From: Candidatus Poribacteria bacterium
Lineage (GTDB): Bacteria > Poribacteria > WGA-4E > PCPOR2b
Length of the DNA stretch: 64,000 nt
Direction: 5' to 3'
Assembly: GCA_965215015.1 (NCBI GenBank)
Contig: OZ244042.1
Location: 3,744,001-3,808,000 of the forward strand
Both the position numbers and the translations under genes were made by a program. The notes below the pieces were generated by a model that saw only the letters and a program-made list of their open reading frames with translations, ran no database searches and was not told the origin of the DNA. Of this stretch, positions 44,353-64,000 are shown in pieces. Within the stretch, counting starts at the first letter, position 1. Every line of letters starts with the position of its first letter.

Positions 44353-44381
44353 TAGACAATGTTTTTGAAATCATGTATAAT
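44353..44381 (+). promoter_or_regulatory. Putative sigma70 promoter
   Basis: TAGACA-17 bp-TATAAT. Confidence 0.45.
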
Positions 44382-45046: not shown

Positions 45047-45059
45047 AGGAGACACAATA

Positions 45060-46205: not shown

Positions 46206-46361
46206 TACGCGGGACATGATGCGTAATGCGTAAGTTGGTACATTAGTTCATTCATGAACCAATGAACTAATGTACCAATGAACGGTTGAACGATGTGGAA
46301 ACGACAGACTGGCCCACCTGAATTTTGATTCCACCGACTTCCTAATTCTCCCTACCCGGAC

Positions 46362-47977: not shown

Positions 47978-48514
47978 CTATTTGGACTCTGAAAAATAAA
48001 ATGATGGGTATGGAAATGGTGTGATTTGCAGGTTGAAATGTTTTTTTACATCTAGTGTATTAGAGAAGATGCGGACAAATGTCCAGCCCGAATGTTGGAC
48101 GACAAAGAAGATACGTTTGCCGTTGTGCGTGTTAAGCGTGTATATGGGCCTCCCCTCAATCCAACTATAATTGGGTAACTCGCGATAGCCTAACGCATAA
48201 ATCGCCTCGTGTGGAGTGAGCCGTCTATTGGCATAGAACGAGAGCATAACCACTTTGTCGTTCAGAATGCCTGTGGTTAATCCTCTGAATCGATATTTAT
48301 CTCCAAAATCGTAAGTGGGTGTTTTGTTCTCTATCGTTTTCCGCGCTTCTCCCAATATAGGTTCGATATTGTCATGAAAGGTTAAGAAGTTTTCGCCAAT
48401 CAAGCGATCGATCCCGTTCATCTGTTCAGGTGTCAGGTCAAGCTGAGGTATGGGGGTAGCACACCCGGATAGCAAAAGTAACAGGCACACAATACAGACA
48501 AAGCGCAGCAGCAT
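47978..48514 (-). CDS. Putative lipoprotein
   Basis: Lipobox LLLSGC after a hydrophobic signal; AAAGGA RBS. Confidence 0.65.
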   Translation of the reverse strand: MLLRFVCIVCLLLLLSGCATPIPQLDLTPEQMNGIDRLIGENFLTFHDNIEPILGEARKTIENKTPTYDFGDKYRFRGLTTGILNDKVVMLSFYANRRLTPHEAIYALGYRELPNYSWIEGRPIYTLNTHNGKRIFFVVQHSGWTFVRIFSNTLDVKKHFNLQITPFPYPSFYFSESK

Positions 48515-48832
48515 AATTGACCATCCTTTTCACCCTAAGAACCCCACCCTATCACCCTAAGAACCCCACCCTAACCCTCCCCGCAAGCGGGGAGGGAATG
48601 AGAATCCTACATACCCATACGGTATCAGACCGTTCTGTATTCATCTAACGTTGAGCGGCAGGTTCACCGGTGCTGAATCGCCGAGGATAGTATGACTCTC
48701 GTGCCAGAGCCTCCGGACACGGTTGGGTCACACAATCGGTTCAAGTCGCCCGGAAGGTTGCGCGATAGTCCGGGTATTTATAACCTCTGAATTATACTGT
48801 AAACATGAAACTTGATTCACTGCTCACAGGAA

Positions 48833-50320
48833 TCATGAGACCCAATCGCGCACGAATTGCACCAGCAGCCGCACACCGAAACCGGTACCGCCCTTGCTAG
48901 GAATATATGACGAGCCTTTGACATCCCATGCCGTGCCGGCGATGTCGAGATGCACCCAAGGATAGCCCTCCGCAAATTTCTTCAGGACCGCCCCACCGAC
49001 GATGGTCCCCGCCGTTGCGTCGCCAATATTTTTCACGTCAGCCACATCGCTTTTGATTAGCTCATCGTAATCGTCCCACAAGGGGAGCTCCCACACCCGT
49101 TCATGCGTTTTCTCTGCCGCGGATCTGACTTTATCCATCAAAGCCTCATCCGTACCCATCATCCCGCAAGCAACGGTTCCCAAAGCGGTGATGACAGCCC
49201 CGGTCAGGGTAGCCAGATCTATCGCTGCCTTCGGGTTATAGTGGGCAGCATAGCCTAACGCATCCGCCAACACCAGTCGCCCTTCCGCGTCCGTATTGAG
49301 GATCTCAATTGTTTTTCCGCCATAGGTTTCGACAACATCTCCCGGCCGCTGGGCGGTGGCACTCGGCATGTTTTCGCTCGCCGCGATTAGCCCAACGACA
49401 TGGAGGTCCGGTTTCAGATGACCGACCACCTGCATCGCGCCAAGCACCGCCGCTGCGCCGGACATATCGTGCTTCATGTCCATCATACCGGAGCCTGATT
49501 TGAGGGATAGCCCCCCGCTATCGAAGGTGATGCCCTTTCCAACAAACGCGACGGTGTCCTTGCCTTCACCGGTGGGGATATGCTCCAAGATGATAAATCG
49601 TGGCTCTTCGACGCTTCCCTGAGACACACCGAGTAAGGTGCGAAACCCTTTCTCTTTCAGTTGCGCTTGGTCAAAAACTTCGCATTTCAGTCCGACCTCA
49701 TCTGCGATCGCAACCGACTTGTCAGCGAACATCGTTGGCGTCAAGTGGTTCGGCGGCTGATTGCTTAGGTCGCGTGCGAGGTTTGTCCCTTTCGCAATTG
49801 CGTCCCCGATGGCAACATCCCCCTCGACCATCGCCTGGCTCGCTTCGTCCGCAACAAGAACGGTGATCGAGTCAAGCCCCTTAACTTTGTCGAGCCCCTC
49901 CGTTTTGTGCTGATTGAATTGATAGAGCGCGAGTCGACTCACTTCAGCGAGTGCCTGTGCTATCTCTTGTGGAGTTTCGGGTGGCAACGGAATCGCGACA
50001 GTTTTTAGTCCCAGATCCCGAAGTTCTTGGACCACTTTGCCCGCCGCCTGACGCACCTTCTCTGGAGCAAAATCTTCGTTTTTTCCCAGGCCGACCAGCC
50101 CAATCCGTGGGGCGGTGATTGCTCCTCTGGTGTAGAGCAGAGCGGTCTGTTTGTGTTCACCTTTGAAGTCGCCGGCCTCAATCAGTTCGGTGATTGCGCC
50201 ATTGGTCGCCGCATCGGCGGCTTGCGCTACGCTGGCGAGGGGTTCCCCTTCAAATACCCCGAATACAACGGCATCGGCGGTTTCTGTTCTGAAATCTCCG
50301 ACTTTGACGTTAATTTGCAT
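48833..50320 (-). CDS. pepA: Leucyl aminopeptidase (M17)
   Basis: VGKGITFDSGG, MKHDMSGAA, NTDAEGRLVLAD, WVHLDIAG. Confidence 0.95.
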   Translation of the reverse strand: MQINVKVGDFRTETADAVVFGVFEGEPLASVAQAADAATNGAITELIEAGDFKGEHKQTALLYTRGAITAPRIGLVGLGKNEDFAPEKVRQAAGKVVQELRDLGLKTVAIPLPPETPQEIAQALAEVSRLALYQFNQHKTEGLDKVKGLDSITVLVADEASQAMVEGDVAIGDAIAKGTNLARDLSNQPPNHLTPTMFADKSVAIADEVGLKCEVFDQAQLKEKGFRTLLGVSQGSVEEPRFIILEHIPTGEGKDTVAFVGKGITFDSGGLSLKSGSGMMDMKHDMSGAAAVLGAMQVVGHLKPDLHVVGLIAASENMPSATAQRPGDVVETYGGKTIEILNTDAEGRLVLADALGYAAHYNPKAAIDLATLTGAVITALGTVACGMMGTDEALMDKVRSAAEKTHERVWELPLWDDYDELIKSDVADVKNIGDATAGTIVGGAVLKKFAEGYPWVHLDIAGTAWDVKGSSYIPSKGGTGFGVRLLVQFVRDWVS

Positions 50321-50349
50321 CCTATGATTTCCTTTCAGTTGTTGGTTCA

Positions 50350-50829
50350 TTAATATCTTTCGCGGATTGTTTCGATAAGATCGGTGGTCGATTTGCCCGG
50401 CACGTTCAAACCAACGATTACTTGGCCTCCGTTCGATTCGACGGCCTCCCGCTCTATGACCTGCTCAATCGTGTAATCGCCGCCCTTGACATGGATGTTT
50501 GGCTTGATGGCGGATAATAGGTCGATCGGATCGAGTTCGGGGAAAACGGTGACGTAATTAACACATGCAAGCCCGGCGAGCATTTCGGCGCGTTCCTCCG
50601 CGGGGACGAGGGGACGGTTCTCCCCTTTGAGGACGCGCACTGAGTCATCGCTGTTGACGCCGACAACGAGGAGGTCACCGAGCGACTGTGCAGCTTGTAA
50701 GTAACGCAGATGACCGACATGCAGCACATCAAAACAACCGTTGGTCGTCACGACGATTTTGCTGTCCGCTTTCGCTTGATGGACAATTTCGACTAGTTGA
50801 TTGCGAGGATAGATCTTTTTGTTTGGCAT
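50350..50829 (-). CDS. rfaE2: D-glycero-beta-D-manno-heptose 1-phosphate adenylyltransferase
   Basis: TNGCFDVLHVGH, GVNSDDSV, KGGDY, STT. Confidence 0.92.
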   Translation of the reverse strand: MPNKKIYPRNQLVEIVHQAKADSKIVVTTNGCFDVLHVGHLRYLQAAQSLGDLLVVGVNSDDSVRVLKGENRPLVPAEERAEMLAGLACVNYVTVFPELDPIDLLSAIKPNIHVKGGDYTIEQVIEREAVESNGGQVIVGLNVPGKSTTDLIETIRERY

Positions 50830-50916
50830 GGCTCGTAACCCGTAAGTTGGTAATGGGTGAGAGGGTAAAGGTGCTCGATTAGGGCGTGTTGACATTTTGC
50901 TGTCGTCTTTTTTCCC

Positions 50917-51315
50917 TTAGTTAAAGAAAGCATTCCATAGTAACAGCGCGATCACAAGAACTGCGGTTCCCCCGGCTATCACAATATACCATTTCACCGT
51001 AGACGTGAATCGATCTACTGTGTTTTCAAGTCGATCCATCGATTCTTTCATGGAATCATTGAAATCGGAGATATCCTCCCGTAATCCTGAAAATTCGCTA
51101 TCTATTTTTGATTGCATCGTCCCCAGTTCGTGGGAAACTTTCGATTCCATTTCCAGCAGCTGATGCTCAAGTGGGCTATCGATCACCTTCACATTTGCCG
51201 AATCTGGCTCGCGCTGCGTTTCGATTGGCTGCGATGGCGTACGATCTGGCAGCTGTGAAGTCGGTTCGTCAGACCTCTCATCGGTTTGGGGGTTGGATTG
51301 GTTTTGTGTGTCCAT
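50917..51315 (-). CDS. Hypothetical coiled-coil protein with C-terminal TM anchor
   Basis: GGGAG RBS before MDTQ; heptad region then WYIVIAGGTAVLVIALLL; an in-frame upstream ATG also exists at 51489. Confidence 0.65.
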   Translation of the reverse strand: MDTQNQSNPQTDERSDEPTSQLPDRTPSQPIETQREPDSANVKVIDSPLEHQLLEMESKVSHELGTMQSKIDSEFSGLREDISDFNDSMKESMDRLENTVDRFTSTVKWYIVIAGGTAVLVIALLLWNAFFN

Positions 51316-51994
51316 GATTTTTTCTCCCACGATGGTTGTTTGTTCGTTATCAGAATCGCGAATCCATTGGATTAAAGGAGACTCGGGATTTTGGAACGCA
51401 TCTTTTGTTATTCCTATATCGCTTCCGCTAACTATCCTCGTGATGTAACGAATTGACGCGCAATGAATTGCGCTACTACGAACGGCCATTCATTTAATTC
51501 CCCTCGTGATGTAACCCCTGGCACCGCAGGCGGATGCTTGTCTGAATCAGGATATTCAGGATTGAAGGATTCATAGGATGGGCTGCTGCATCAAAGAGCT
51601 CCTTATTGAGCGTGAAGCTCGAAAATTTGGTCGGGAAGTTACCGGCTGTCAACTGATGGAGCACATTTTTGCCCGGAATGTTGAAGGTGAAGAAGTTCCG
51701 ATTTAGACAGTATAGAACATTACAAGAAGGCATGTCAAGGATTGAGCGAGGGGTATCGGCTTACAGATACATCAATAGTATACAATTGTCAGCATCTGGC
51801 TTCATCAGATTGTCTGAATCAGGATATTCAGGATTGAAGGATTCATAGGATGGTCTCATGTTAAAAAATGATGCAAAGAGACCGAGGAAGGATACCAAGA
51901 CCTATCGGGCTCAATCCGCCCAGAACATTGCGCGTCCGTTTCTGAGGTGGCGTTGAGCGTTCAATGGCGGGCCTCCTAATTTTTAGATACTGCT

Positions 51995-53368
51995 GTTTGT
52001 ATCCTATTTATCCCTCCATCCTGGAAATCCTGATTCAGGACACGGCTTCAACTAGCCGCGTTATCTAATTCAGACATTTTCCGCACACTCCACTATGGCG
52101 ATTTCTTCAGGGGTGAGACCGTATAAATTGTCAGCATCTGGATTGAGTAGATTCCATGATTCTCAGGATTCTTAGATGCTGCCGTTTGTATCCTGTTTAT
52201 CCTTCCCTCCTGGAAATCCTGATTCAGACATTTTCCGTGCTCTCCACTATGGCGATTTCTTCAGGGTTGAGCCCGTATAAATTGTCAGCATCTGGATTGA
52301 GTAGATTCTATGATTCTCAGGATTCTTAGATGCTGCCGTTTGTATCCTGTTTATCCCTCCCTCCTGGAAATCCTGATTTAGGACACGGCTTCAAATAGCC
52401 GCGTTATCTAATTCAGACATTTTCCGCGCTCTCCACAATAGCGATTTCTTCAGGGTTGAGCCCGTATCAATTGTCAGAATCTGGCTTCAGTAGATTCTAT
52501 GATTCTCAGGATTTTTAGGTGCTGCGGTTTCTATCCTGTTTATCCTTCCATCCTGGAAATCCTGATTCAGACATTTTCCGCGCTCTCCACAATAGCGATT
52601 TCTTCAGGGTTGAGCCCGTATAAATTGCCAGCATCTGGATTCAGCAGATTCTATGATTCTCAGGATTTTTAGATGCTGCGTTTTCTATCCTGTTTATCCT
52701 TCCATCCTGAAAATCCTGATTCATTCATTTTCCGCACACTCCACTATGGCGATTTCTTCAGGGGTGAGCCCGTATAAATTGCCAGCATCTGGATTCAGCA
52801 GATTCTACGATTCTCAGGATTTTTAGATGCTGCGGTTTGTATCCTGTTTATCCCTCCATCCTGAAAATCCTGATTCAGACATTTTCCGCGCTCTCCACTA
52901 TGGCGATTTCTTCAGGGGTGAGCCCGTATAAATTGCCAGCATCTGGATTCAGCAGATTCTACGATTCTCAGGATTTTTAGATGCTGCGTTTTCTATCCTG
53001 TCTATCCATCCTGGAAATCCTGATTCAGGACACGGCTTCAACTAGCCGCGTTATCTAATTCATTCATTTTCCGCGCTCTCCACAATAGCGATTTCTTCAG
53101 GGGTGAGCCCGTATAAATTGTCAGCATCTGGATTCATCAGATTCTATGATTCTCAGGATTCTTAGATGCTGCGGTTTCTATCCTGTTTATCCTTCCATCC
53201 TGGAAATCCTGATTCATCCATTTTCCGCGCTCTCCACTATGGCGATTTCTTCAGGGTTGAGCCCGTATACAATTGTCAGCATCTGGATTCACCGGATTCT
53301 ATGATTCTCAGGATTTTTAGATGCTGCGGTTTGTATCCTGTTTATCCCTCCATCCTGGAAATCCTGAT
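51995..53368 (-). repeat. Array of 8 units (154 bp, two of 185-189 bp): imperfect hairpin plus a copy of the last 19 codons of the upstream MTase gene
   Basis: Tail copies (LYGL[T/N]PEEIAIVE[S/C][A/T]EN[V/E/G]*) near 52069, 52223, 52412, 52566, 52720, 52874, 53059, 53213. Confidence 0.92.
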
Positions 53369-56300
53369 TCATCCATTTTCCGCGCTCTCCACTATGGCGA
53401 TTTCTTCAGGGGTGAGACCGTATAACAAGTATACTATCTGATCAACCTCATTTTCAAGTTCGGATACATCCGCGTCCGGGTCAGTGTCTTTGGCAGCGAG
53501 AATCTGATCGACCAGTTCAATAATCAGGGCTTGCTGCTCAGAGGGAGCATCCGGTATTGGAAATTTTTTCACATAATTGTTAATCCAACGACTTGTTCCC
53601 ATCCCACTCGTTTCTGCAATAAGGTTCAAGTAAAAACGAATTGCACTTGAATTTAGGATACCTAGCAGAAATTTTGACTCCATACCTGAAGGAGGTAATA
53701 AAAAATACGCTGAGTTTAGCAGATAAACTTCTTCATTACAAAGGGCAAACCGCCCCAAATCCGTTAGCTCAATCCACACAATCTTTTCTTTTTTGAAGTC
53801 CTCATAGAATGAACACGCTCTTAGATTCGTCCAGTGTTGTCCTTGTGCCCCACGATTTCTGAACCTATCCCCAAATGACTCTAAATGTTTGTATATATCA
53901 GGATAATCTCTTTGTACATTAATTCCATTTTTGGCCAGTAAAATATACTGCCCCCCTAATGTGTAACTGTAGCGGGAAATATCTCTGCCTCTCAAAATGG
54001 GTTTTATGATTTCAGTATTGATGGGATTTTTTTTACAAAATTCTTGTTTCTTATCTTCATCTATAAGAAAAGCTTCATTGCTGCCAGTAGCAATACCAAG
54101 TCTAATTTTTGCCCTCAACTGTTCGAGAGTTTTCCCTGATGATTCCAGTCTCTTTTGGAGCTCAACACACTTTGGTTCTACAAGATTCCACGACCTTGAG
54201 TTAAAGTAGGCTTGAGGATAATTAAAACCGTTGCTTTTTACAAAATCCTCAAAACTATTACCTGAAAATGGCGCATTAACAACAATACAAAAATCATCGG
54301 TGAGATTTGTCGGTTTACGAGACACTATTATTGCGACATTAACAATCACACTCTCGAAAACCTGCGAATCTTCAATATTTAACACTCTTAGCAGCATGTT
54401 TTTACTGTGCAGCAGTCTTCGGATTGGTGCGCCATATTCTGCCCTCAAGTATGAATTTGAAGTAATAAAACTAAATATTCCTTGCTGGTTTTGCAGCTCT
54501 ATCGCTTTTTCGATGAAATAGCAGTACACATCTGCAAACGGTTGGTAAGATTGATAGTTATTCTTAATTTCGGTTTTAAGCTGTTTAGGGATTTTATCAT
54601 GGCTAATATACGGCGGATTTCCAATGACGACATCAAAGCCGTCCGTAACCCCGAACATCCACTCCGGGTCAAACCAATCCGCGCTTGCATTCGGGTCGTA
54701 GGGGTCCCAAGCGGCGACTTTATTCGCATCATCGGCGGGTATCCCGATATGGCGTAATTCCGTCGCCAATTCTTGTCTCAATTTCTTGTCCGCTCGTTTA
54801 CAGTCGAGTTTCTGTGAGCGTGTTGTGGCGTGGAAATGCCGTTCCCGATTTTTACCCAATTCCCCTTCTAATGCTTTCGCCCTGGGGCTTGTCAGGGTTC
54901 GTTCGCCTTCGAGACCGATGAGCATGTTTGCCGCGATAAAGCGTGTCTCCAGATTCGGCAGCGGCTTAATCCCAAAGTTAGCTGCGGCACTATCCGGTTC
55001 CTGCTCAATGGCAAGGGAGATGAAAAAGCGAAGCTTGGCAATTTGGCAAGCGATAGATTGAATGTCCACACCGAAGATGCTGTTTTGAATCAGATACAAC
55101 TTCCGTCCGAAATCCGAATCGCGGTACCGTTTGAAAGTTTCGTTGATTTCGAGGAGGGCTTCACGGCGTAGGTGGTCATCTGCCGTATCAAACGCGTTAG
55201 CCGCCTGTTGGATGGCGCGTTCTTTCTGTAGCTGTTCCCATCGGGTGTTATCGGGGTCCAGCCGTCGTAGGGCGAGCGTCAGTTTATGCAGTATCCCCAT
55301 CGGAAACGCCCCGGAACCGACGGCGGGGTCAAGTATCTTCAATTCTGAAATTGCCCGCACTACCAAGTCGGCTTCGCGGCTATCGAACCGTTCGCTCGCC
55401 TCGTCAAATGCCTTTGCGTAATCGAACAGATAGTGCAACCGCTCGTCCCAAAACTTGGGGTCTCCGTCCGTCGGGGCCACCTGTCCTGCAAGCGTAGCGA
55501 CTAACGCCTCCTCTACCATGTAGTCCACGATGGGACGCGGGGTGTAATAGGAACCGGTCTGCTTCCGTGCCGTTGTGCCGGTTTCGGGGTTATACGCAGC
55601 GAGCAGGTTTTCAAACACCTTGCCAAGTAGCTCCGGGTCCAACGCGACCTCCTGCTCTATGGGTGTGTTTTCCTCAACGGTAAACTTGTACCGTTCCAGC
55701 AGGGGAATCAGACCGTAATCATCATTGAAGAAGAGATAGTTGGGGATGCTTAATTGACTGTAATGCACATCGGAGAAGCAATCCACCCGGTAGCCGCCAT
55801 CCCGTGTTGCCTCCTCGCTGTCGAGACAATCGAATAAGCCACCGTTGATGAATGGCGTTTGGGCGAACAGCCCCAGCAGCTTGTCGGGATCGGCTATCTG
55901 GTCTCTGTAGCGATACCGTGAGAAATTGCGATGGACCGGGTTGCCCCCTTCGCTAAACCCACGCTTCTCTATCTCGGTGTTCAGTGTGGCGAAAAACAGA
56001 TTCTGTAGCACCGCCCGGTAGTAGGAATCGCCGGTGTCGCGGTCATAGTCTTTCAACAGGTAGCGGACGTGTGTCTCGTTGAACAGTTCATCGGCGATCA
56101 GTCCCTTCTCTTTGATAAACCAGACAAACAGCAGTCGCGTGATTAAGCGGATGACGTGCTCCTCCGATTTCAAGGTACGCTTTTCGTTTGTGGGGAACTC
56201 GCCTTCAGCAACTGCCCATTCAAACCAAGCGAACAATTCCCGGTAGAACTGCTTATTGAGTGCTTCGGTGTCGAGAGTTTTTTCCCAAGCGCGATGCAGC

Positions 56301-56935
56301 TCGACAAAATTGCGGACACCGTGCGTTTGGTTCAACGGTTCAAGGGCGAGATCGAATAGGATATCGATGTGTGCACGGTGGGTATCGTTGCAATCAATAT
56401 CCTTGATAAGGGTTACTTTTTCGAGGACATCGCGGGCTGGGTCGGATGCGTGCAAACGGCGATTGATAATCGACAGGGTGAGTGTATCGCCGTGTTGAAA
56501 GAACAGCATCGCGGGTATCGAGAACAACTTGTTGATTTCGCGGGTGATTTGTGACAGTTGGGTGCGGTTGTAACCGCTGCCTTCCAAGCGGATTGCGAAG
56601 AAAAGGTAGGATTCGATGATGGTGTTATCTACCTGCGTCTGGCTGGGATTGAAACTCCATCGGGTTGTATCCGTGGGTGTCAGGTCCTCGCCTGTGAGTT
56701 GGAAAAGCAGGTCAATAGAGGTCCATTCTGCTGTCAGTGCCCTACCGCTATTCAGTTGCCCGTGTAGATCGTAGGCGGCAATAAAGGCGTCGGCGGTATT
56801 TGATTCAAGGGCTAGCGTCCTTTCGCTTTGATAGCCGAGTATGTTGAGCAGATTTCGTGCATTTTCAGCGAGGGCCCCATCGGTGAAGCGGTTTAGAGCG
56901 TTAGTGAGGGCGGCTTTGTGTTGTGCATCGTTCAT
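53369..56935 (-). CDS. Eco57I/type IIG-like restriction-modification N6-adenine methyltransferase with TaqI_C-like specificity region
   Basis: LLGKVFENLL, GSYYTPR, LDPAVGSGAF, GNPPY, KPILRGRDI, KIVW; no nuclease motif identified by eye. Confidence 0.88.
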   Translation of the reverse strand: MNDAQHKAALTNALNRFTDGALAENARNLLNILGYQSERTLALESNTADAFIAAYDLHGQLNSGRALTAEWTSIDLLFQLTGEDLTPTDTTRWSFNPSQTQVDNTIIESYLFFAIRLEGSGYNRTQLSQITREINKLFSIPAMLFFQHGDTLTLSIINRRLHASDPARDVLEKVTLIKDIDCNDTHRAHIDILFDLALEPLNQTHGVRNFVELHRAWEKTLDTEALNKQFYRELFAWFEWAVAEGEFPTNEKRTLKSEEHVIRLITRLLFVWFIKEKGLIADELFNETHVRYLLKDYDRDTGDSYYRAVLQNLFFATLNTEIEKRGFSEGGNPVHRNFSRYRYRDQIADPDKLLGLFAQTPFINGGLFDCLDSEEATRDGGYRVDCFSDVHYSQLSIPNYLFFNDDYGLIPLLERYKFTVEENTPIEQEVALDPELLGKVFENLLAAYNPETGTTARKQTGSYYTPRPIVDYMVEEALVATLAGQVAPTDGDPKFWDERLHYLFDYAKAFDEASERFDSREADLVVRAISELKILDPAVGSGAFPMGILHKLTLALRRLDPDNTRWEQLQKERAIQQAANAFDTADDHLRREALLEINETFKRYRDSDFGRKLYLIQNSIFGVDIQSIACQIAKLRFFISLAIEQEPDSAAANFGIKPLPNLETRFIAANMLIGLEGERTLTSPRAKALEGELGKNRERHFHATTRSQKLDCKRADKKLRQELATELRHIGIPADDANKVAAWDPYDPNASADWFDPEWMFGVTDGFDVVIGNPPYISHDKIPKQLKTEIKNNYQSYQPFADVYCYFIEKAIELQNQQGIFSFITSNSYLRAEYGAPIRRLLHSKNMLLRVLNIEDSQVFESVIVNVAIIVSRKPTNLTDDFCIVVNAPFSGNSFEDFVKSNGFNYPQAYFNSRSWNLVEPKCVELQKRLESSGKTLEQLRAKIRLGIATGSNEAFLIDEDKKQEFCKKNPINTEIIKPILRGRDISRYSYTLGGQYILLAKNGINVQRDYPDIYKHLESFGDRFRNRGAQGQHWTNLRACSFYEDFKKEKIVWIELTDLGRFALCNEEVYLLNSAYFLLPPSGMESKFLLGILNSSAIRFYLNLIAETSGMGTSRWINNYVKKFPIPDAPSEQQALIIELVDQILAAKDTDPDADVSELENEVDQIVYLLYGLTPEEIAIVESAENG

Positions 56936-56937
56936 CT

Positions 56938-57981
56938 TTAGGCTTTCCTGAGTTTAATCCTTGCTGCTATCTTTTGAGCTAAATCCTTGAAAGCGTCGCG
57001 GGCGGCATTGGCGGCGGCGGCGTGGGCACCGATAGCACCGTCTGCCGGGGTGAGGTGAAAAATGGGTTTTCGCGCTTCTTGTGCCATCGGTACTAGGCTT
57101 CGGTAGTGCTTAACAGTAGCAAGGGCATGTTTTTCATCTTGTGACGGTGTCTCGGGGTAAGGGCCTTCGTTATCGTCGAGTAGGTTCCGGGCGTATTCCT
57201 CCGGCATCCGGTTGACCCACTTATCATAGGCTATCACAGGGCGGTTCAAACGGACACTGTGTTGCTGCATTACATATCCAATTGGTTTCATATCTCCCTT
57301 CGGAAGTGGAAAATCGGGTGTGCTCCAATTATCTCGTCTGGTTTTCCAATCCTGCCTCCAGCGTTTCAGCGTAGGGCCGAGGTTACGCAACCCCCGAAGC
57401 GAAAACAGATCTGCCCCCAGTGGAACGACGACATAATCGGTTGCAATCAGCGCAGAGCGGTTGATAGCACCGAGATTGGGACCAACGTCGGCTAAAATAA
57501 TTGAGGCATTCATTTCTGCTGCGCCTTTCTGCATAATAGTCGAAAACGCGGTCAGTATTCTAAAAGGACGATACAGGTTACTGGATCCCAGTGCGTTTGG
57601 CCATTCAGTTGATAGGGTATCCTCAAACCCTGCGAGTGCTAGGTCGCCCGGAATCAACCGAAGATCCCCCTGAAACAGATCTGGTTGGCGTATAATTGGC
57701 TGAAGAGACGCTAATTGCAGGTCTCCGACGTGCATCAGTGGTTTCACACACTCAAAGATAGTACTGCTAGATGTAGAGGCAGTGTCGTTTTCGTCCCAAA
57801 GGCTCTCCAAGCATTCTTCTTTGAGAAACGCAGCGGTAAGGTTCGCCTGTGGGTCCAGGTCACAGGCAAGCACTCGATGACCGATGTCGGATAGCATCCA
57901 TGCTAGATGGTAGGCCAGGGATGTCTTGCCTACGCCGCCTTTATTGTTGAAGAAGGTTAAAACGGGAACAGGCATTTTCAT
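56938..57981 (-). CDS. ParA/Soj-like (AAA_31) ATPase
   Basis: NNKGGVGKTS, DLDPQANLT, DVGPNLGAINR. Confidence 0.9.
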   Translation of the reverse strand: MKMPVPVLTFFNNKGGVGKTSLAYHLAWMLSDIGHRVLACDLDPQANLTAAFLKEECLESLWDENDTASTSSSTIFECVKPLMHVGDLQLASLQPIIRQPDLFQGDLRLIPGDLALAGFEDTLSTEWPNALGSSNLYRPFRILTAFSTIMQKGAAEMNASIILADVGPNLGAINRSALIATDYVVVPLGADLFSLRGLRNLGPTLKRWRQDWKTRRDNWSTPDFPLPKGDMKPIGYVMQQHSVRLNRPVIAYDKWVNRMPEEYARNLLDDNEGPYPETPSQDEKHALATVKHYRSLVPMAQEARKPIFHLTPADGAIGAHAAAANAARDAFKDLAQKIAARIKLRKA

Positions 57982-57987
57982 CTCCTT

Positions 57988-59214
57988 TCAGGATTTTGGC
58001 ACTGCCTCTATTGTGACAAGCACGTTAGTATCATAAATTTCAAATCTCGGTTCCGGATGTCCTGCTTCAGTCAACAGCCTTCTTGCTGTCGGTATTCCCA
58101 CGCCAAAACGTTGCACATAGCCGAGGTTTTTCATCGCTTCCGCCAGATTGGGGTTGCGATAATCGGTCAGTCCGGGCTGGCCGAAATTCACAGCCGTTAC
58201 CACCCCAAACGCGCCGCCGGGGCTTAAAACCTCAATACGGTCGTTGAACCAAGACACACGAATTGGCGCATTGGTTGCCTCATAGGTCCTGTGCATAACG
58301 GCGTTCCGGGTAATTTGTTGCAACGCAGGAATGGGGTAAAGTTCTGTCCGTTGTTCGACGACGTTGGTTGTGAAATCAACAGCGGTGCGATTGTGAGCGG
58401 TCAGTTTCTCGTCGAGACGGCGAAGCAAGTCTGGAATTGTCCCCCCTATTTCTTCGTTGTCAAGAATATCATCCGTTAGCTGACTACCATTAATTCTGAG
58501 GAACTGGACATAAGCATTTGGAAGAAAATCCTGTGGATTTTTGCCGAGCACCAGTATTCCCAACATCGTTGCAATTCGTTCATCGCCCGGAGCAATCATC
58601 TTCGTCGCAGCTAGGCGTTCTTCGGGAGTGCGTTCATTGGCTTGTAGTACCTCGGCGGTAACAACTTGCGGTAGATATTCGTTCTCGAACTGGGCCAGGT
58701 TCAGATCGGAGATGCCGGCTGTGGGGATGGGATGCAGGTCGAAGGGACTGTCTCCAAATCGCCGCTTTTCGTTGAGAATCCTTTCATCCTGTGCCGTGGC
58801 GATGCTGCGGCGCGGCCCAACCCGGATATGGATAGAACCTTTGAATCGAACCGGCGGCGAGTCAGAGGGTTGCACTATGACCACAGCAATTTCCTTACCT
58901 TGCAGCAGCCGCTTCTCAACGTTCAGCGATGGCGGGGGCACGATATTCCCATCAGTTTTCATATCAGCTAATTGCCGGAGCAATCTGTCCGTGACAGATA
59001 GCCCTGTGATAGTTCTGTCATCTCTCACCCCTATAAAAACAAAGCCTGGTTTTTCGTGGCGTGGCAAATCATTGGTAAATGCACAAATGGCTTCTCTGAT
59101 TCTTTCTGTGGCACTGCCGCTCAAAGATTCTTTGAACTCGATACGGTCAGCTTCGCCGAATTCGATGATTTGTAGCAATTCTTCGTCTGTAAAATCTGAC
59201 ATTGTGATTTCCAT
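57988..59214 (-). CDS. Schlafen AlbA_2 plus HATPase_c_4 (RecG C-terminal-like) protein
   Basis: EADRIEFKES..ICAFTN..FIGVRD; NAVMHRTY, IEVLSPG, RNPNLA, GVGI. Confidence 0.85.
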   Translation of the reverse strand: MEITMSDFTDEELLQIIEFGEADRIEFKESLSGSATERIREAICAFTNDLPRHEKPGFVFIGVRDDRTITGLSVTDRLLRQLADMKTDGNIVPPPSLNVEKRLLQGKEIAVVIVQPSDSPPVRFKGSIHIRVGPRRSIATAQDERILNEKRRFGDSPFDLHPIPTAGISDLNLAQFENEYLPQVVTAEVLQANERTPEERLAATKMIAPGDERIATMLGILVLGKNPQDFLPNAYVQFLRINGSQLTDDILDNEEIGGTIPDLLRRLDEKLTAHNRTAVDFTTNVVEQRTELYPIPALQQITRNAVMHRTYEATNAPIRVSWFNDRIEVLSPGGAFGVVTAVNFGQPGLTDYRNPNLAEAMKNLGYVQRFGVGIPTARRLLTEAGHPEPRFEIYDTNVLVTIEAVPKS

Positions 59215-59446
59215 TCATTTAACTCCCCTCGTGATGTAACCCCTGGCACCGCAGGCGGATGCTTGTCTGAATCAGGATATTCAGGATTGAAGGATTCATA
59301 AGATGGGCTCATGTAAAAAAATGATGCAAAGAGACCGTAGGAAGGATACCAAGACCTATCGGGCTCAATCCGCCCAGAACATTGCGCGCCCGTTTCTGAG
59401 GTGGCGTTGAGCGTTCAATGGCGGGCCTCCTAATTTTTAGATACTG

Positions 59447-60631
59447 CTGTTTCTATCCTGTCTATCCATCCTGGAAATCCTGATTCAGGACACGGCTTCA
59501 ACTAGCCGCGTTATCTAATTCATCCATTTTCCGCGCTCTCCACTATGGCGATTTCTTCAGGAGTGAGACCGTATAAATTGTCAGCATCTGGATTCACCGG
59601 ATTCTATGATTCTCAGGATTTTTAGATGCTGCGTTTTCTATCCTGTTTATCCTTCCATCCTGAAAATCCTGATTCATCCATTTTCCGTGCTCTCCACCAT
59701 AGCGATTTCTTCAGGGGTGAGCCCGTATAAATTGTCAGCATCTGGATTCACCGGATTCTATGATTCTCAGGATTTTTAGATGCTGCGGTTTGTATCCTGT
59801 TTATCCATCCAGTCTGGAAATCCTGATTCAGACATTTTCAGCACCCTCCACAATAGCAATTTCTTCAGGGGTTAAATTGTATAATGAGTATACTATCCGA
59901 ATTCGGGTTGTTACGGAGGCAAAAAAATCCGTCGATGGTGATACTTATCCTGTTTATCCTTCCATCCTGAAAATCCTGATTCAGAGATTTTCCAATCCCT
60001 CCACCATAGCGATTTCTTCAGGGGTGAGCCCGTATAAATTGTCAGCATCTGGATTCACCGGATTCTATGATTCTCAGGATTTTTAGATGCTGCGGTTTCT
60101 ATCCTGTTTATCCCTCCATCCTGGAAACCCTGATTCAGCACACGGATTCAACTAGCCACCTTATCTAATTCAGACATTTTCAGCACACTCCACAATACCG
60201 ATTTCTGCAGGGGTTAAATTGTATAATGAGTATACTATCCGAATTCGGGTTGTTACGGAGGCAAAAAAATCCGTCGATGGTGATACTTATCCTGTTTATC
60301 CTTCCATCCTGAAAATCTTGATTCAGACATTTTCAGCACCCTCCACAATACCGATTTCTGCAGGAGTGACACCGTATACAATTGTCAGAATCTGGATTGA
60401 GCAGATTCTATGATTCTCAGGATTTTTAGATGCTGCCGTTTCTATCCTGTTTATCCTTCCATCCTGAAAATCCTGATTCAGAGATTTTCCAATCCCTCCA
60501 CAATAGCGATTTCTGCAGGAGTCAGACCGTATAAATTGTCAGAATCTGGATTCACCGGATTCTACGATTCTCAGGATTTTTAGATGCTGCGGTTTGTATC
60601 CTGTTTATCCCTCCATCCTGGAAATCCTGAT
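59447..60631 (-). repeat. Array of 7 units (~154 bp, one of 189 bp): hairpin plus MTase C-terminal tail copies
   Basis: Tail copies near 59519, 59673, 59827, 59980, 60169, 60322, 60477. Confidence 0.92.
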
Positions 60632-63600
60632 TCAGACATTTTCCAATCCCTCCACAATACCGATTTCTGCAGGAGTCAGACCGTATAACAAATATACTAT
60701 CTGATCAATCTCATTTTCAAGTTCAGATACATCCGCCTCCGGGTCAGTCTCTTTGGCGGCGAGGATTTGGTCAACACGCGCTTCTATCTGTGCAGCAAGG
60801 TGTTGGTTTGCTTCTGTAACAGGGGGAACAGGGAAGCGTTCCATGAACTCACCCTTAAATCTGACTCCTCTTGAACCTAAATGACCGCCCGCATAGTAAT
60901 TCTTAAATGCGAAAAGAAAGAACTTTGAATTTAGGATACCAATAAGGTAAGTAGGATTTTTGCCCGTTAATATCCGTGTGGTATCAAGCGAATAGAATTG
61001 GTTTCTATCAATAAGAAATGTTCCTTTCGTTGCCATCTCTTGCCAAACAATCTTCTCCTGCTCAAATTCAGGGTAGTAAGCAATTTGATCCGATAACTCA
61101 AACCATTTATTCCCCGTCTTCTTCCGAGATTTAGTGCCATCAGCCAGTATTTTGCCTGCCTGTTCCAACCGATCTTTACCAAATTCCAGAAGATAATTTT
61201 TAACCGCAGGATAATCGTCAATGTTCAAATTGAGTGCAGGAAATGTATTTATTGAATACAATCCCGCCCATCGGAGATGATAGCGTTCAATGTCTCGGCC
61301 GCGCAGAAGTGGTTTGATGATTTCGGCTGACTTTGGGTCTTCTGCTACCAGTTCTTCCCGCTTGGCTTCGTCTATGATAAATGCTTCATTACAACCTGTT
61401 GTAATTCCCCTATAGATGTTTATATCCCAATCCTTGAGCGGTTTGCCGACATGCTCTATTTTGCGTTTCAAGGCAAGTGCCGCAGGTGAGAGTATCGCCC
61501 ACGGTTCGCCTTTAGCGGGCAGTTCCATAGCTACGCCGCTAGCGTTCAGGTATGGGGCTATGGCACCGGTGTGTGTGTCAAAATCGGATTTGATAGTTGC
61601 CGCTTTGAATACCGAATAGGCATCAGGCATAGTATTTCTGAGTAGCAAGATGTTGGTGTCCACGGTGGCATCAAACACATCCGGCCCCATGTCGAGCAGT
61701 TGAATGGGTTGAGTATATCGAATAAAATAATCTCTCAACCTTTTGCCATACGCTGCACGCATCCATTTGTTGGAAGTAATAAGACAGCCATGCCCCCCGT
61801 TTTTCAACAGTTGATTCGCTTTTTCATAGAACAGACAGTAAATATCCCCTGTCCTGATAAAACTGTCAAAATTGCACGGTGCATACAAACGCCCCAATCT
61901 CCCGCCATCTCTTTGCAATTGAATATACGGCGGATTGCCAATGACGACATCAAAGCCGTCCGTAACCCCGAACATCCACTCCGTATCGAACCAATCCGCG
62001 CTTGCGTTCTGGTCGTAAGGGTCCCAAGCGGCGACTTTATTCGCATCATCGGCGGGTATCCCGATATGGCGTAATTCCGTCGCCAATTCTTGTCTCAATT
62101 TCTTGTCCGCTCGTTTACAGTCGAGTTTCTGGGGGCGTGTTGTGGCGTGGAAATGCCGTTCCCGATTTTTACCCAATTCCCCTTCTAATGCTTTCGCCCT
62201 GGGGCTTGTCAGGGTTCGTTCGCCTTCGAGACCGATGAGCGTGTTTGCCGCGATAAAGCGTGTCTCCAGATTCGGCAGCGGCTTAATCCCAAAGTTAGCT
62301 GCGGCACTATCCGGTTCCTGCTCAATGGCAAGGGAGATGAAAAAGCGAAGCTTGGCAATTTGGCAAGCGATAGATTGAATGTCCACACCGAAGATGCTGT
62401 TTTGGATCAGATACAACTTCCGTCCGAAGTTGCCCGAATAATTTTCAAAGATTCTGCTAATTTCCGTGAGCTCTTCGTCGCGGCTCTGTCTATCCTTCGT
62501 ATCAAACGCATCCGCCGCGCGTTGGATGGCGCGTTCTTTCTGTAGCTGTTCCCATCGGGTGTTATCGGGGTCCAGCCGTCGCAGGGCGAGCGTCAGTTTA
62601 TGCAGTATCCCCATCGGAAACGCCCCGGAACCGACGGCGGGGTCAAGTATCTTCAATTCTGAAATTGCCCGCACTACCCGGTCCGATTCACAGCTATCGA
62701 ACCGTTCGCTCGCCTCGTCAAATGCCTTTGCGTAATCGAACAGATAGTGCAACCGCTCGTCCCAAGACTTGGGGTCTCCGTCCGTCGGGGCCACCTGTCC
62801 TGCAAGCGTGGCGACTAACGTCTCCTCTACCATGTAGTCCACAATGGCACGGGGGGTGTAATAGGAGCCGGTCTGCTTCCGTGCCGTTGTGCCGGTTTCG
62901 GGGTTATACGCAGCGAGCAGGTTTTCAAACACCTTGCCAAGTAGCTCCGGGTCCAACGCGACCTCCTGCTCTATCGGTGTGTTTTCCTCAACGGTGAACT
63001 TGTACCGTTCCAGTAGGAGAATCAGACCGTAAGCATCATCGAAGAAGAGACGGTTAGGAATACTTAATTGACTGTAATGCACATCGGAGAAGCAATCCAC
63101 CCGGTAGCCGCCATCCCGTGTTGCCTCCTCGCTGTCGAGACAATCGAATAAGCCACCGTTGATGAATGGCGTTTGGGCGAACAGTCCCAGCAGCTTGTCG
63201 GGGTCGGCTATCTGGTCTTTGTAGCGATACCGTGAGAAATTGCGATGGACCGGATTGCCCCCTTCGCTAAAGCCACGCTTCTCTATCTCGGTGTTCAGTG
63301 TGGCGAAAAACAGGTTCTGTAGCACCGCCCGGTAGTAGGAATCGCCCGTGCCCCGGTCATAGTCTTTCAGCAATGGGGCGATGTGCATCTCGTTGAACAG
63401 GTCATCGGCGATCAGTCCCTTCTCTTTGATAAACCAGACGAATAGCAGTCGCGTGATTAAGCGGATGACGTGCTCCTCCGATTTCAAGGTACGCTTTTCG
63501 TTTGTCGGGAACTCGCCTTCAGCAACCGCCCATTCAAACCAAGCGAACAATTCCCGGTAGAACTGCTTATTGAGTGCTTCGGTGTCGAGAGTTTTTTCCC

Positions 63601-64000
63601 AAGCGCGATGCAGCTCGACAAAATTGCGGACACCGTGCGTTTGGTTCAACGGTTCAAGGGCGAGATCGAATAGGATATCGATGTGGGCACGGTGGGTATC
63701 GTTGCAATCAATATCCTTGATAAGGGTTACTTTTTCGAGGACATCGCGGGATGGGTCGGATGCGTGCAAACGGCGATTGATAATCGACAGGGTGAGTGTA
63801 TCGCCGTGTTGAAAGAGCAGCATCGCGGGTATCGAGAACAACTTGTTTATTTCGCGGGTGATCTGTGAGAGTTGGGTGCGGTTGTAATCGCTGCCTTCCA
63901 AGCGGATTGCGAAGAAAAGGTAGGATTCGATGATGGTGTTATCCACCTGCGTCTGGCTGGGATTGAAACTCCATCGGGTTGTATCCGTGGGGGTCAGGTC
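60632..64000 (-). CDS. Second Eco57I/type IIG-like methyltransferase paralogue, 5' end beyond the window
   Basis: Near-identical to 53369..56935 up to GNPPY, different specificity region, similar C-terminal tail. Confidence 0.88.
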   Translation of the reverse strand, partial: DLTPTDTTRWSFNPSQTQVDNTIIESYLFFAIRLEGSDYNRTQLSQITREINKLFSIPAMLLFQHGDTLTLSIINRRLHASDPSRDVLEKVTLIKDIDCNDTHRAHIDILFDLALEPLNQTHGVRNFVELHRAWEKTLDTEALNKQFYRELFAWFEWAVAEGEFPTNEKRTLKSEEHVIRLITRLLFVWFIKEKGLIADDLFNEMHIAPLLKDYDRGTGDSYYRAVLQNLFFATLNTEIEKRGFSEGGNPVHRNFSRYRYKDQIADPDKLLGLFAQTPFINGGLFDCLDSEEATRDGGYRVDCFSDVHYSQLSIPNRLFFDDAYGLILLLERYKFTVEENTPIEQEVALDPELLGKVFENLLAAYNPETGTTARKQTGSYYTPRAIVDYMVEETLVATLAGQVAPTDGDPKSWDERLHYLFDYAKAFDEASERFDSCESDRVVRAISELKILDPAVGSGAFPMGILHKLTLALRRLDPDNTRWEQLQKERAIQRAADAFDTKDRQSRDEELTEISRIFENYSGNFGRKLYLIQNSIFGVDIQSIACQIAKLRFFISLAIEQEPDSAAANFGIKPLPNLETRFIAANTLIGLEGERTLTSPRAKALEGELGKNRERHFHATTRPQKLDCKRADKKLRQELATELRHIGIPADDANKVAAWDPYDQNASADWFDTEWMFGVTDGFDVVIGNPPYIQLQRDGGRLGRLYAPCNFDSFIRTGDIYCLFYEKANQLLKNGGHGCLITSNKWMRAAYGKRLRDYFIRYTQPIQLLDMGPDVFDATVDTNILLLRNTMPDAYSVFKAATIKSDFDTHTGAIAPYLNASGVAMELPAKGEPWAILSPAALALKRKIEHVGKPLKDWDINIYRGITTGCNEAFIIDEAKREELVAEDPKSAEIIKPLLRGRDIERYHLRWAGLYSINTFPALNLNIDDYPAVKNYLLEFGKDRLEQAGKILADGTKSRKKTGNKWFELSDQIAYYPEFEQEKIVWQEMATKGTFLIDRNQFYSLDTTRILTGKNPTYLIGILNSKFFLFAFKNYYAGGHLGSRGVRFKGEFMERFPVPPVTEANQHLAAQIEARVDQILAAKETDPEADVSELENEIDQIVYLLYGLTPAEIGIVEGLENV

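What the first reader, a model, noticed from the sequence alone, without database searches (positions are those of the whole stretch)
51995..60690. Arrays of 'hairpin + gene-tail' units downstream of both type IIG-like methyltransferases: candidate specificity-switching system
Seen: right after each MTase stop is a ~97-nt imperfect palindrome (minus strand TGTCTGAATCAGGATT...AATCCAGATGCTGACAAT). It is joined at an almost fixed point (GACAAT|TTATACGG) to a 57-nt copy of the gene's last 19 codons (LYGLTPEEIAIVESAENx*). This 154-bp unit repeats 8 times after gene 1 and 7 times after gene 2. The hairpin's left end overlaps and supplies the gene's stop codon. Units differ by scattered, apparently shuffled substitutions, and most tails remain in frame with a stop. 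Inference: each replacement of the target-recognition domain by an incoming TRD+tail+hairpin segment could push the old tail downstream, so the array would count switching events or offer landing pads for exchange. Alternatively it is a structured RNA in the 3' UTR. I know of no described R-M-associated array like this.
Basis: partly seen in the sequence, partly recalled or inferred. Interest (0 to 1): 0.88.

Follow-up and report, generated by a model that had tools for sequence, protein, structure and literature searches.

The report
Gene-tail plus palindrome satellite arrays
Behind several restriction-modification genes of a sponge-symbiont-type bacterium, a 100-base palindromic repeat and the gene's last 19 codons have been copied many times in tandem, most likely a by-product of repeat-driven recombination and not a specificity switch.

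Summary
Both Type IIG genes end inside a ~100-nt imperfect palindrome. Gene 1 is followed by 8 and gene 2 by 7 further copies of the 57-nt gene tail, each with a hairpin.

It is not peculiar to these two genes. The genome, whose relatives are titled Candidatus Poribacteria, holds 46 non-gene tail copies at 7 loci. About 40 clusters carry the hairpin with several constant spacer types. One 2.6-kb array lies in an HD-gene/tRNA spacer that has no hairpin in 7 related species.

In relatives the same gene family ends inside a single hairpin in 33 of 50 loci. The hairpin-to-tail junction occurs 34 times here and is not confirmed elsewhere.

The target-recognition domains (TRDs) are old alleles shared with other species that lack arrays. 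No reverse transcriptase, REP-associated transposase (RAYT), adjacent recombinase or silent TRD copy was found.

Best reading: a REPIN-cluster-like satellite, made by a microhomology duplication, then amplified and scrambled by unequal and ectopic recombination. A new variant of a known kind, of moderate interest.

The parts
53369..56935 (-). Type IIG restriction-modification gene 1 (p1), 1188 aa. Its stop codon lies in the left end of the first hairpin.
   Evidence: Pfam Eco57I 7.6e-36 and TaqI_C 9.7e-18. PADLOC REase_MTase_IIG 6.5e-105.
60632..64000 (-). Type IIG gene 2 (p2). Its 5' end lies beyond the window; the open frame is 1218 codons in the genome.
   Evidence: Pfam Eco57I 2.5e-33 and TaqI_C 2.2e-9. 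Open frame measured.
51985..53425 (-). Array 1: the gene's own 57-nt tail (53425..53369), then 8 tail copies (starting at 53270, 53116, 52931, 52777, 52623, 52469, 52280 and 52126), each followed by a hairpin. The last hairpin is interrupted near 51985.
   Evidence: Sequence, tandem repeat periods 154/189/308/343, tail list.
59440..60688 (-). Array 2: the gene's own tail (60688..60632), then 7 tail copies (starting at 60534, 60379, 60226, 60037, 59884, 59730 and 59576) with hairpins. Units near the gene resemble p2's tail; units far from it resemble p1's.
   Evidence: Sequence, tandem repeats, tail comparison.
60534..60638 (-). Canonical hairpin copy with ends TGTCTGAATC ... GATTCTGACA. The stem has an unpaired base at position 5.
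   Evidence: Fold -32 kcal/mol, z -3.55, 0 of 200 shuffles as good.
53272..53372 (-). First hairpin after gene 1. Its left end is the variant GGATGAATC, and the fold is weaker.
   Evidence: Fold -24.9 kcal/mol, z -1.46.
53024..53059 (-). One of five 35-nt inserts between a tail and its hairpin (CTGAAT...CTGAAT). It looks like an internally deleted copy of a second hairpin subfamily.
   Evidence: Sequence, compared with CGGATT-type hairpins of relatives. The derivation is inferred.
60170..60289 (-). 'Long-type' unit: the hairpin is cut after GGATA, followed by 47 nt and a 75-nt tail (IVYSLYNLTP...) of another paralogue lineage. A second such unit lies at about 59828..59945.
   Evidence: Sequence. 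The same module occurs at genome 3336-3338k and 5413-5414k. A relative has a gene ending VYSLYNLTPEEIAIVEGAENV* (L002).
51770..51793 (-). Right hairpin end joined to the flank ATTGTATACTATTGATG. This is the proposed original right flank, whose TTGTATAC resembles TTGTTATAC inside the gene.
   Evidence: Sequence. The same flank closes arrays at 5 other loci and follows the single hairpin of paralogue E.
51850..51984 (-). Sequence inserted into the last hairpin. It is shared with 59300..59440 behind array 2, showing that the two loci are segmental duplicates.
   Evidence: Direct comparison.
56938..59214 (-). Genes between the two loci: a ParA-like ATPase (56938..57981) and a Schlafen/AlbA_2 + HATPase_c_4 protein (57988..59214).
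   Evidence: Pfam. PADLOC gives only weak matches.

Best explanation
The hairpin belongs to a family of ~100-nt palindromic repeats found widely in this bacterial order. The family has conserved 10-nt ends and variable arms. One copy has long been fixed at the stop codon of an expanded Type IIG gene family, where its left end encodes Val-stop. In this lineage, an illegitimate crossover joined TTGTATAC in the hairpin's right flank to TTGTTATAC, which lies 57 nt before the stop. That event duplicated 'tail + hairpin' as a 154-bp unit. The unit was then amplified like a satellite, by unequal crossing-over or slippage. Ectopic recombination and gene conversion scrambled it among the paralogous loci and carried it to a few unrelated loci. 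The same recombination also makes the genes mosaic. The arrays are a by-product, harmless because every copy restores an in-frame tail with a stop. They are not a dedicated specificity switch. Shown here: the anatomy, the genome-wide spread, the restriction to this genome, the mosaic genes and the old TRD alleles. Inferred: the founding crossover, and the mode of amplification and transfer.
For: 1. Genome-wide spread. The hairpin gives 158 BLAST hits (18 inside the window, 140 outside) in 40 clusters, with spacer types of 14, 17, 49 and 57 nt.
2. Of 53 tail sequences, 7 are real gene tails and 46 are copies, spread over 7 loci.
3. A second hairpin family forms arrays of 141-145-nt units with its own constant spacer at 3 loci.
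4. The undivided state exists. Paralogue E has its tail, one hairpin, then ATTGTATACTATTGATG. Both junction variants, GACAATTGTATACGG and GACAATTTATACGG, can be read as crossovers within TTGT(T)ATAC.
5. Local amplification. Higher-order periods of 308 and 343 bp match at 90-91%, against 74% for the 154-bp period. For 37 of 52 tails the nearest relative lies in the same locus, and 6 of 7 tails at 730k are identical.
6. Exchange between loci. For 15 of 52 tails the nearest relative lies only in another locus.
7. Lineage-specific. The junction pattern (up to 2 mismatches) occurs 34 times here and 0-4 times in each of 28 other genomes of the family. All 8 matches inspected there lie in ordinary coding DNA.
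8. The TRD of gene 1 is 76-88% identical in 7 other genomes, whose loci hold 0-3 tails.
9. The paralogues are mosaic. E and p2 are 51-54% identical over residues 1-300, but 94, 78 and 90% identical over the three C-terminal segments.
10. No reverse transcriptase was found. Only two IS200-like Y1 transposase fragments exist, not next to hairpins. None of the 11 tyrosine recombinase matches lies beside the arrays of this gene family.
11. Precedent: ordered REPIN clusters are tandem repeats of a REPIN together with its flanking sequence (PMC3116915, passages read).
Against: 1. The 10-nt ends are exactly conserved across the order while the arms differ by lineage. The exact pattern matched in 29 of 71 genomes and the reversed control matched in none. 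This hints at an enzyme that recognises the ends, so amplification or transfer may be catalysed rather than passive.
2. A 2.6-kb array with 7 tail units lies in an HD-gene/tRNA spacer that has no hairpin motif in 7 of 7 related species. Blocks therefore reach new sites, and homologous recombination alone does not easily explain that.
3. The stop codon lies inside the hairpin end in 33 of 50 Poribacteria-titled loci and in 0 of 23 others. The single hairpin may thus be functional, and the arrays might modulate that function.
4. Variation in the tails leans slightly towards third codon positions (minor-allele sums 116, 98 and 156 for positions 1, 2 and 3). Some tails may have evolved as coding sequence.
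5. No data on strains, long reads or RNA were available.
Confidence: 0.52

Rival explanations
1. An active mobile element. The palindrome would be a non-autonomous MITE- or REPIN-like element moved by an unidentified enzyme that recognises its conserved ends. Imprecise cutting on the left would carry flanking DNA such as the gene tail, and insertion next to existing copies would build the arrays.
For: Exact 10-nt ends are conserved across the order while the arms are lineage-specific. An array sits in a site that lacks any hairpin in 7 of 7 relatives. Several hairpin families each carry their own constant spacer. Tail fragments between hairpin pieces, with different junctions, occur in other species (L074, L025 and L008). 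REPIN clusters include flanking sequence (PMC3116915).
Against: No RAYT was found; the only Y1 transposase matches are two IS200-like fragments away from hairpins. No element of recurring length bounded by these ends was found among 77 candidate pairs. There was no flanking direct repeat at 12 of 14 elements that stand apart from other complete copies. The junction is shared by nearly all units, as expected from one event followed by recombination.
Confidence: 0.2
2. Selected 3' homology, the first reader's 'landing pads'. Tail+hairpin arrays would supply long homology downstream of the divergent TRD, so that TRD-bearing 3' halves are exchanged more easily between paralogous Type IIG loci.
For: The paralogues are mosaic. 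Arrays contain tails of other paralogue types, and 15 of 52 tails have their nearest relative only at another locus. TRD movement through 8-117 bp of flanking similarity is documented in Helicobacter pylori (PMC3467074, passages read).
Against: TRD alleles are old and are shared with species that lack arrays. The longest exact match between paralogous loci, arrays included, is at most 213 nt, so there is no sign of recent conversion. The break points between paralogues differ and fall inside conserved coding sequence. C and D diversified their TRDs without this hairpin. Arrays also follow unrelated genes: a secretin, a multicopper oxidase and an SHMT gene.
Confidence: 0.13
3. A structured 3' untranslated region. 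The hairpin over the stop codon would act in the mRNA, protecting its 3' end or stalling terminating ribosomes to limit a potentially toxic enzyme, and the arrays would strengthen or tune this effect.
For: The stop codon lies inside the hairpin end in 33 of 50 Poribacteria-titled family members, across distant paralogue lineages. In the minimum-energy fold the two ends pair with each other in 137 of 157 distinct elements. REP elements close to stop codons are reported to lower translation in E. coli; this is recalled (Liang, Rudd and Deutscher 2015) and was not seen here.
Against: Rfam gives no match. No terminator-like site lies inside the arrays. The whole 150-nt unit folds no better than shuffled sequence, z -0.68. 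The arrays are confined to one genome, whereas the single hairpin is widespread. The repeated tails have no obvious role in an RNA.
Confidence: 0.1
4. An assembly artefact of a repeat-rich metagenome-assembled genome.
For: No read or contig spanning an array was available. The public contigs laid on the region are short and break in the repeats.
Against: Seven loci hold tail+hairpin copies whose tails differ between loci, and each locus examined has its own flanks. Units differ by 5-25%, enough to be ordered. The genome is one 5.94-Mb contig. Five runs from 2 studies hold 58-71% of the sampled words of array 1 and its flanks.
Confidence: 0.03

Closest known systems
REPIN clusters in Pseudomonas fluorescens SBW25 (Bertels and Rainey 2011, PMC3116915; passages read)
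   Same: A ~100-nt hairpin-forming repeat occurs as ordered tandem arrays in which each unit is the hairpin plus its 5' flanking sequence. There are many loci per genome, and such arrays are not found in all related genomes.
   Different: No RAYT gene was found here, and the ends are TGTC.../...GACA rather than GTAG- or CGTC-tagged. The arrays are much longer (up to 18 hairpins, against 4 REPINs), and the repeated flank is the coding tail of a gene whose stop codon lies inside the element.
BIMEs, mosaic arrays of REP elements in E. coli (named in PMC3116915; details recalled)
   Same: A mosaic of palindromic units and a few fixed linker types, repeated in tandem in intergenic DNA behind genes.
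   Different: As recalled, BIME units alternate in orientation and are 20-40 nt long. Here all units are direct, ~100 nt long, and one linker is a gene fragment.
TRD 'domain movement' among methyltransferase genes of Helicobacter pylori (PMC3467074, passages read; PMC3077401, search listing only)
   Same: Paralogous restriction-modification genes with conserved flanks and exchangeable recognition domains. Exchange occurs by recombination at short similar sequences on both sides of the TRD.
   Different: Those systems have no array of tails or palindromes behind the gene. Here the exchanges look old, and the arrays are not tied to particular TRDs.
   Same: An imperfect palindrome of variable length has conserved ends, a variable centre and an unpaired base. 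It starts at or over the stop codon of the preceding gene and repeats in one direction.
   Different: The ends do not match the recalled attC core sites RYYYAAC/GTTRRRY. The 'cassettes' are 14-57 nt and nearly identical. No integrase gene lies next to the arrays.

Membership tests
REPIN/RAYT system | Two inverted REP halves that form one long hairpin | tested here: met
   Imperfect palindrome: -32 kcal/mol, z -3.55. The two ends pair with each other in 137 of 157 distinct elements.
REPIN/RAYT system | A cognate RAYT (Y1 transposase) gene flanked by the repeats | tested here: not met
   PF01797 matches only two places. Both are IS200-like fragments (one with an internal stop, one with a 91-aa frame) and have no hairpins beside them.
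REPIN/RAYT system | GTAG- or CGTC-tagged REP ends (PMC3733652, abstract in the search listing) | tested here: not met
   The ends are TGTCTGAATC and GATTCWGACA.
MITE (miniature inverted-repeat transposable element) | Terminal inverted repeats | tested here: met
   The 10-nt ends are complementary except at position 5 and are conserved in 29 of 71 genomes of the order.
MITE (miniature inverted-repeat transposable element) | Target-site duplications, and a full-length insertion sequence with the same ends | tested here: not met
   No flanking direct repeat at 12 of 14 elements that stand apart from other complete copies. No recurring length among 77 end pairs 600-4000 nt apart.
Phase-variable restriction-modification switch (inverting hsdS-type shufflon) | Silent alternative TRD copies, inverted repeats and an adjacent recombinase | tested here: not met
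   tblastn with p1 and p2 finds only the full-length paralogues. All repeats are direct. The nearest tyrosine recombinase match is about 40 kb away.
Diversity-generating retroelement or retron | A reverse transcriptase gene | tested here: not met
   PF00078 has 0 matches in the genome, which is 98% complete.
Integron cassette array | An IntI-type integrase next to the array, and attC core sites | tested here: not met
   None of the 11 tyrosine recombinase matches lies next to the arrays of this gene family. The ends differ from the attC cores as recalled.
Known RNA family (Rfam) | A match to a curated covariance model | tested here: not met
   0 matches at E up to 1 over window 44000-64000.
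Type IIG restriction-modification enzyme (the genes themselves) | Eco57I-type methyltransferase with a TaqI_C-like TRD in one long polypeptide | tested here: met
   Pfam. PADLOC REase_MTase_IIG 6.5e-105 for gene 1. A nuclease domain and enzyme activity were not tested.

The most novel reading that the evidence does not exclude
The conserved-end palindrome is the recognition site of an unidentified hairpin-specific recombinase or transposase found across Poribacteria, comparable to attC/IntI or REPIN/RAYT. It sits on the stop codon of Type IIG genes and moves their 3' segments, the tail and perhaps the TRD with it, between loci. The tail+hairpin arrays, and the array inserted in the HD-gene/tRNA spacer, would be its footprints.
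Probability: 0.12. Interest if true: 0.8.

Novelty: new variant of a known kind. Interest (0 to 1): 0.5.

Why it matters
1. It shows how a palindromic repeat fixed on a stop codon can turn the coding end of a gene into satellite DNA: 46 non-coding copies of a 19-codon tail in one genome. Such copies can be mis-called as small ORFs and can break short-read assemblies.

2. The mixed tail types record past recombination among 8 intact Type IIG paralogues in an uncultivated lineage. Sponge-associated microbial communities are reported to be rich in defence genes (PMC5099237, title and abstract start in the search listing).

3. The repeat family itself has exact 10-nt ends conserved across an order, lineage-specific periodic arms and no known partner enzyme. 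It is a concrete lead to a possibly new way of mobilising or recombining hairpin DNA.

4. For restriction-modification biology, the result argues that these arrays should not be read as a phase-variation device without data from strains.

Tried and rejected
- Rfam on window 44000-64000: no match.
- Sequencing runs: no listed holder is on record as RNA. The contigs laid from 4 runs are short; none spans an array, so copy number and assembly could not be checked. Many 'joints' there probably come from the other arrays in the genome.
- Covariation by chimeras (left arm of one element joined to the right arm of another) was confounded, because both strands of a palindrome match the search pattern. 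Chimeras folded better than native elements, and a second attempt at orienting the elements failed. These results were dropped.
- Codon-position test on the tails: only a weak excess at third positions, so not used as an argument.
- Target-site-duplication model for the constant spacers: no flanking direct repeat at 12 of 14 elements. Only 14 elements qualified, and some of them lie at array edges.
- Insertion sequence bounded by the hairpin ends: none of recurring length.
- Tyrosine recombinases: 30 end motifs (1 mismatch allowed) lie within 5 kb of the 11 genes, against my rough estimate of about 18 expected. Not convincing, because the elements are clustered.
- Y1 transposases: two IS200-like fragments.
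- Reverse transcriptase: none.
- 'A second gene's tail' in the 141-145-nt array family: the spacer ends an 81-codon frame at only one of the 3 loci, and that frame has no Pfam match. I therefore do not claim that a gene tail was captured there.
- Metagenome scans: the junction pattern found 0 contigs. The tail-end-plus-hairpin pattern found one unrelated contig, L120, which carries a 797-codon open frame that I did not identify with any tool.
- Junction-like matches in relatives are ordinary coding DNA in all 8 cases inspected.
- The paper I recall on REP elements near stop codons could not be found in the library. Supplementary figures S7 and S8 of PMC3116915, which draw the REPIN clusters, were not seen.


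Full report
OBSERVATION. All features lie on the minus strand. Two long genes (53369..56935, and 60632..beyond the window end) both match Pfam Eco57I plus TaqI_C. Gene 1 also matches PADLOC Type IIG restriction enzyme-methyltransferase models at 6.5e-105. Each stop codon lies in the left end of a ~100-nt imperfect palindrome (TGTCTGAATCAGGATT ... AATCCAGATKCTGACA). The palindrome is followed at a nearly fixed junction, GACAATT(G)TATACGG, by a copy of the gene's last 57 nt and then another palindrome, and so on. Tandem Repeats Finder reports a 154-bp period plus higher-order periods of 189, 308 and 343 bp. A loose match to the tail core finds the gene tail plus 8 copies behind gene 1, and the gene tail plus 7 copies behind gene 2. 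Of these 15 copies, 14 keep an open 19-codon frame with a stop. A canonical palindrome folds at -32 kcal/mol (z -3.55), and the first one after gene 1 at z -1.46. Some details go beyond it: five units carry a 35-nt insert, two units of array 2 are a different 'long' type, and the last hairpin of each array is interrupted by sequence that the two loci share.

THE SAME THING ELSEWHERE IN THE GENOME. The window lies in a single 5.94-Mb contig with 49% G+C. Relatives of its Type IIG genes are almost all titled Candidatus Poribacteria. The hairpin gives 158 BLAST hits, 18 inside the window and 140 outside, in 40 clusters. The arrays use a small set of spacers. These are a 14-nt spacer that looks like the last bases of the tail, a 17-nt spacer, a 49-nt spacer and the 57-nt tail. 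In all there are 53 tail sequences, of which 7 end real genes and 46 are copies. The copies are distributed as 3, 7, 9, 3, 8, 7 and 9 over seven loci. Five of these loci follow members of one paralogous family of 8 intact Type IIG genes. Two loci do not. One follows a DUF1156 methyltransferase gene (3666k) and one follows an HD-domain gene (730k). A second DUF1156 gene (5660581-5663490) has lost its own C-terminus and now ends ...IVEGAENV* inside a hairpin array. Other hairpin arrays follow another Eco57I-like gene and an SNF2+PLD helicase gene. Others again follow a secretin, a multicopper oxidase, an SHMT and a metallo-beta-lactamase-fold gene. A diverged hairpin family forms arrays of 141-145-nt units with its own constant spacer at three loci.

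RELATIVES. In other genomes of the genus, the same gene family ends ...LYxLTxEEIAIVEGAENV* with the stop inside a single hairpin, and the interior of that hairpin differs between loci. I examined the 73 loci whose C-terminus was reached. The stop lies inside TGTCTGAATC (up to 1 mismatch) in 33 of 50 titled Poribacteria and in 0 of 23 with other titles. The LYGLTEEEI..IE tail motif is present in nearly all of them. The exact ends, separated by a 65-95-nt gap, occur in 29 of 71 genomes of the order: 37 times here and 0-9 times elsewhere. The reversed control pattern matched in no genome. The arms carry different short periodic motifs in different families. By contrast, the hairpin-to-tail junction (up to 2 mismatches) occurs 34 times here and 0-4 times in each of 28 other genomes of the family. 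All 8 matches inspected there lie in unrelated coding DNA. Small independent cases do exist in relatives. L074 has two partial-tail units between half hairpins. L025 has an older, longer tail+hairpin displaced about 1 kb by an insert. L008 has two partial-tail units. L046 has an array of 150-nt hairpin units without a tail.

HOW THE UNIT AROSE (INFERENCE). Paralogue E shows the undivided arrangement: gene tail, one hairpin, then ATTGTATACTATTGATG. The same flank closes arrays at five other loci and lies behind array 1 at 51793..51770. Inside the genes, 57 nt before the stop, stands CTTGTTATACGG. A crossover within TTGT(T)ATAC yields exactly the two junction variants observed, GACAATTGTATACGG and GACAATTTATACGG. 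A single such event, or very few, duplicating tail+hairpin explains why nearly all units share one junction. Amplification afterwards is shown in two ways. The higher-order periods match at 90-91%, against 74% for the basic period. Neighbouring units can be identical, and 37 of 52 tails have their nearest relative in the same locus. Exchange between loci is shown by the other 15 of 52 tails. It is also shown by array 2, where units near the gene resemble p2's tail and the most distal unit differs from p1's own tail at 1 of 51 positions. The array at 730k lies between an HD-domain gene and a tRNA cluster. In 7 of 7 related species that locus has no hairpin motif; 4 of them have a short spacer there and 3 have other inserts. 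Blocks therefore reach new sites. Three arrays share 160-250 nt of right flank, which includes a deleted derivative of a 1.34-kb DDE-transposase insertion sequence.

IS IT A SPECIFICITY SWITCH? The paralogues are clearly mosaic. E and p2 are 51-54% identical over residues 1-300, but 94, 78 and 90% identical over residues 600-880, the TRD and the C-terminus. All other TRD pairs are 11-37% identical. The exchanges look old, however. The longest exact match between paralogous loci, arrays included, is at most 213 nt. Every TRD also has a counterpart at 66-88% amino-acid identity in another Poribacteria genome. Gene 1's TRD occurs in 7 other genomes whose loci hold 0-3 tails and never an array. 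Paralogues C and D are 96-98% identical over the first 600 residues and 25% identical in the TRD, yet no copy of this hairpin family was detected near them. There are no silent TRD copies, no inverted repeats and no reverse transcriptase. No RAYT was found, and no recombinase gene lies beside the arrays. The arrays therefore do not count switching events. A role as downstream homology remains possible but has no specific support. TRD movement through 8-117 bp of flanking similarity is known from H. pylori (PMC3467074).

RNA ROLE. Rfam gives nothing. No terminator-like site falls in the arrays, and the whole unit folds no better than shuffled sequence. The long-standing position of a single hairpin over the stop codon could still matter for expression. 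This could not be tested, because no RNA run was listed.

COMPARISON AND VERDICT. The closest described thing is the ordered REPIN cluster of Pseudomonas fluorescens. [quoted passage not shown] What is found here works like such a cluster but fails two tests of REPIN membership: no RAYT is present and the end tags differ. It goes further in three ways. The arrays are longer, up to 18 hairpins. The repeated flank is a coding gene tail, and the element supplies the stop codon. The units are shared among paralogous restriction-modification loci. I rate it a new variant of a known kind and of moderate interest. The open and more interesting question is what recognises the order-wide conserved ends.

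Noticed in passing
Whole genome and 71 genomes of the order, e.g. window 60534..60638: A palindromic element family has exact 10-nt ends, TGTCTGAATC ... GATTCWGACA. It occurs in 29 of 71 genomes of the order, and the reversed control matched in none. The arms carry lineage-specific short periodic motifs: GGATT-type in this family and CAGAAG/GCGGAAG-type in another. In many copies position 5 of the end stem is a T-T mismatch.
   Followed up: partly
Genome 1502681-1503063, 1699440-1701443 and 1753211-1754183 (outside the window): A second, diverged hairpin family forms arrays of 141-145-nt units (about 15 units at 1699k) with a constant ~38-nt spacer. At one locus the spacer coincides with the end of an 81-codon frame that has no Pfam match.
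   Followed up: partly
Genome 5660581-5663490 and 3663582-3666527 (outside the window): Two paralogous DUF1156 methyltransferase genes are each followed by hairpin arrays. One has lost its last codons and now ends with the Type IIG-derived IVEGAENV* inside the array.
   Followed up: partly
Window 51489..51560 and 59214..59300, minus strand: The same ~70-nt module, a right half-hairpin followed by GAGGGGA(A/G)TTAAATG, lies directly upstream of the start codons of two unrelated genes. A strong promoter-like site (11 of 12) lies at 51738..51709 in the shared flank.
   Followed up: no
Window 56959..59130: Contigs from 4 public runs join 56959 to 59130 with 40 other letters between. They skip the ParA-like and Schlafen/AlbA_2 genes, which suggests a variant arrangement or a paralogous locus.
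   Followed up: no
Genome 2232625-2233961 and at least 7 further copies; right flanks of the arrays at 733k, 4534k and 5660k: A 1.34-kb insertion sequence with a DDE_Tnp_1 transposase is present in several copies. A ~200-nt derivative with an internal deletion sits immediately behind three hairpin arrays.
   Followed up: partly
L025:7530-8490 (a related Poribacteria genome): A ~0.9-kb insert with one open frame of about 210 codons separates the current gene tail and partial hairpin from an older, longer tail and hairpin.
   Followed up: no
Genome 1177741-1186869, 1347739-1351040 and 3453511-3455158 (outside the window): Tandem Repeats Finder rows with periods of 66-75 nt and constant ~30-37-nt cores look like three CRISPR arrays. 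The genome also carries many other dispersed repeat families.
   Followed up: no
Genome 3373956-3381312 (outside the window): Two adjacent Type IIG paralogues, C and D, are 96-98% identical over the first 600 residues but only 25% identical in the TRD. No copy of this hairpin family was detected near them.
   Followed up: partly
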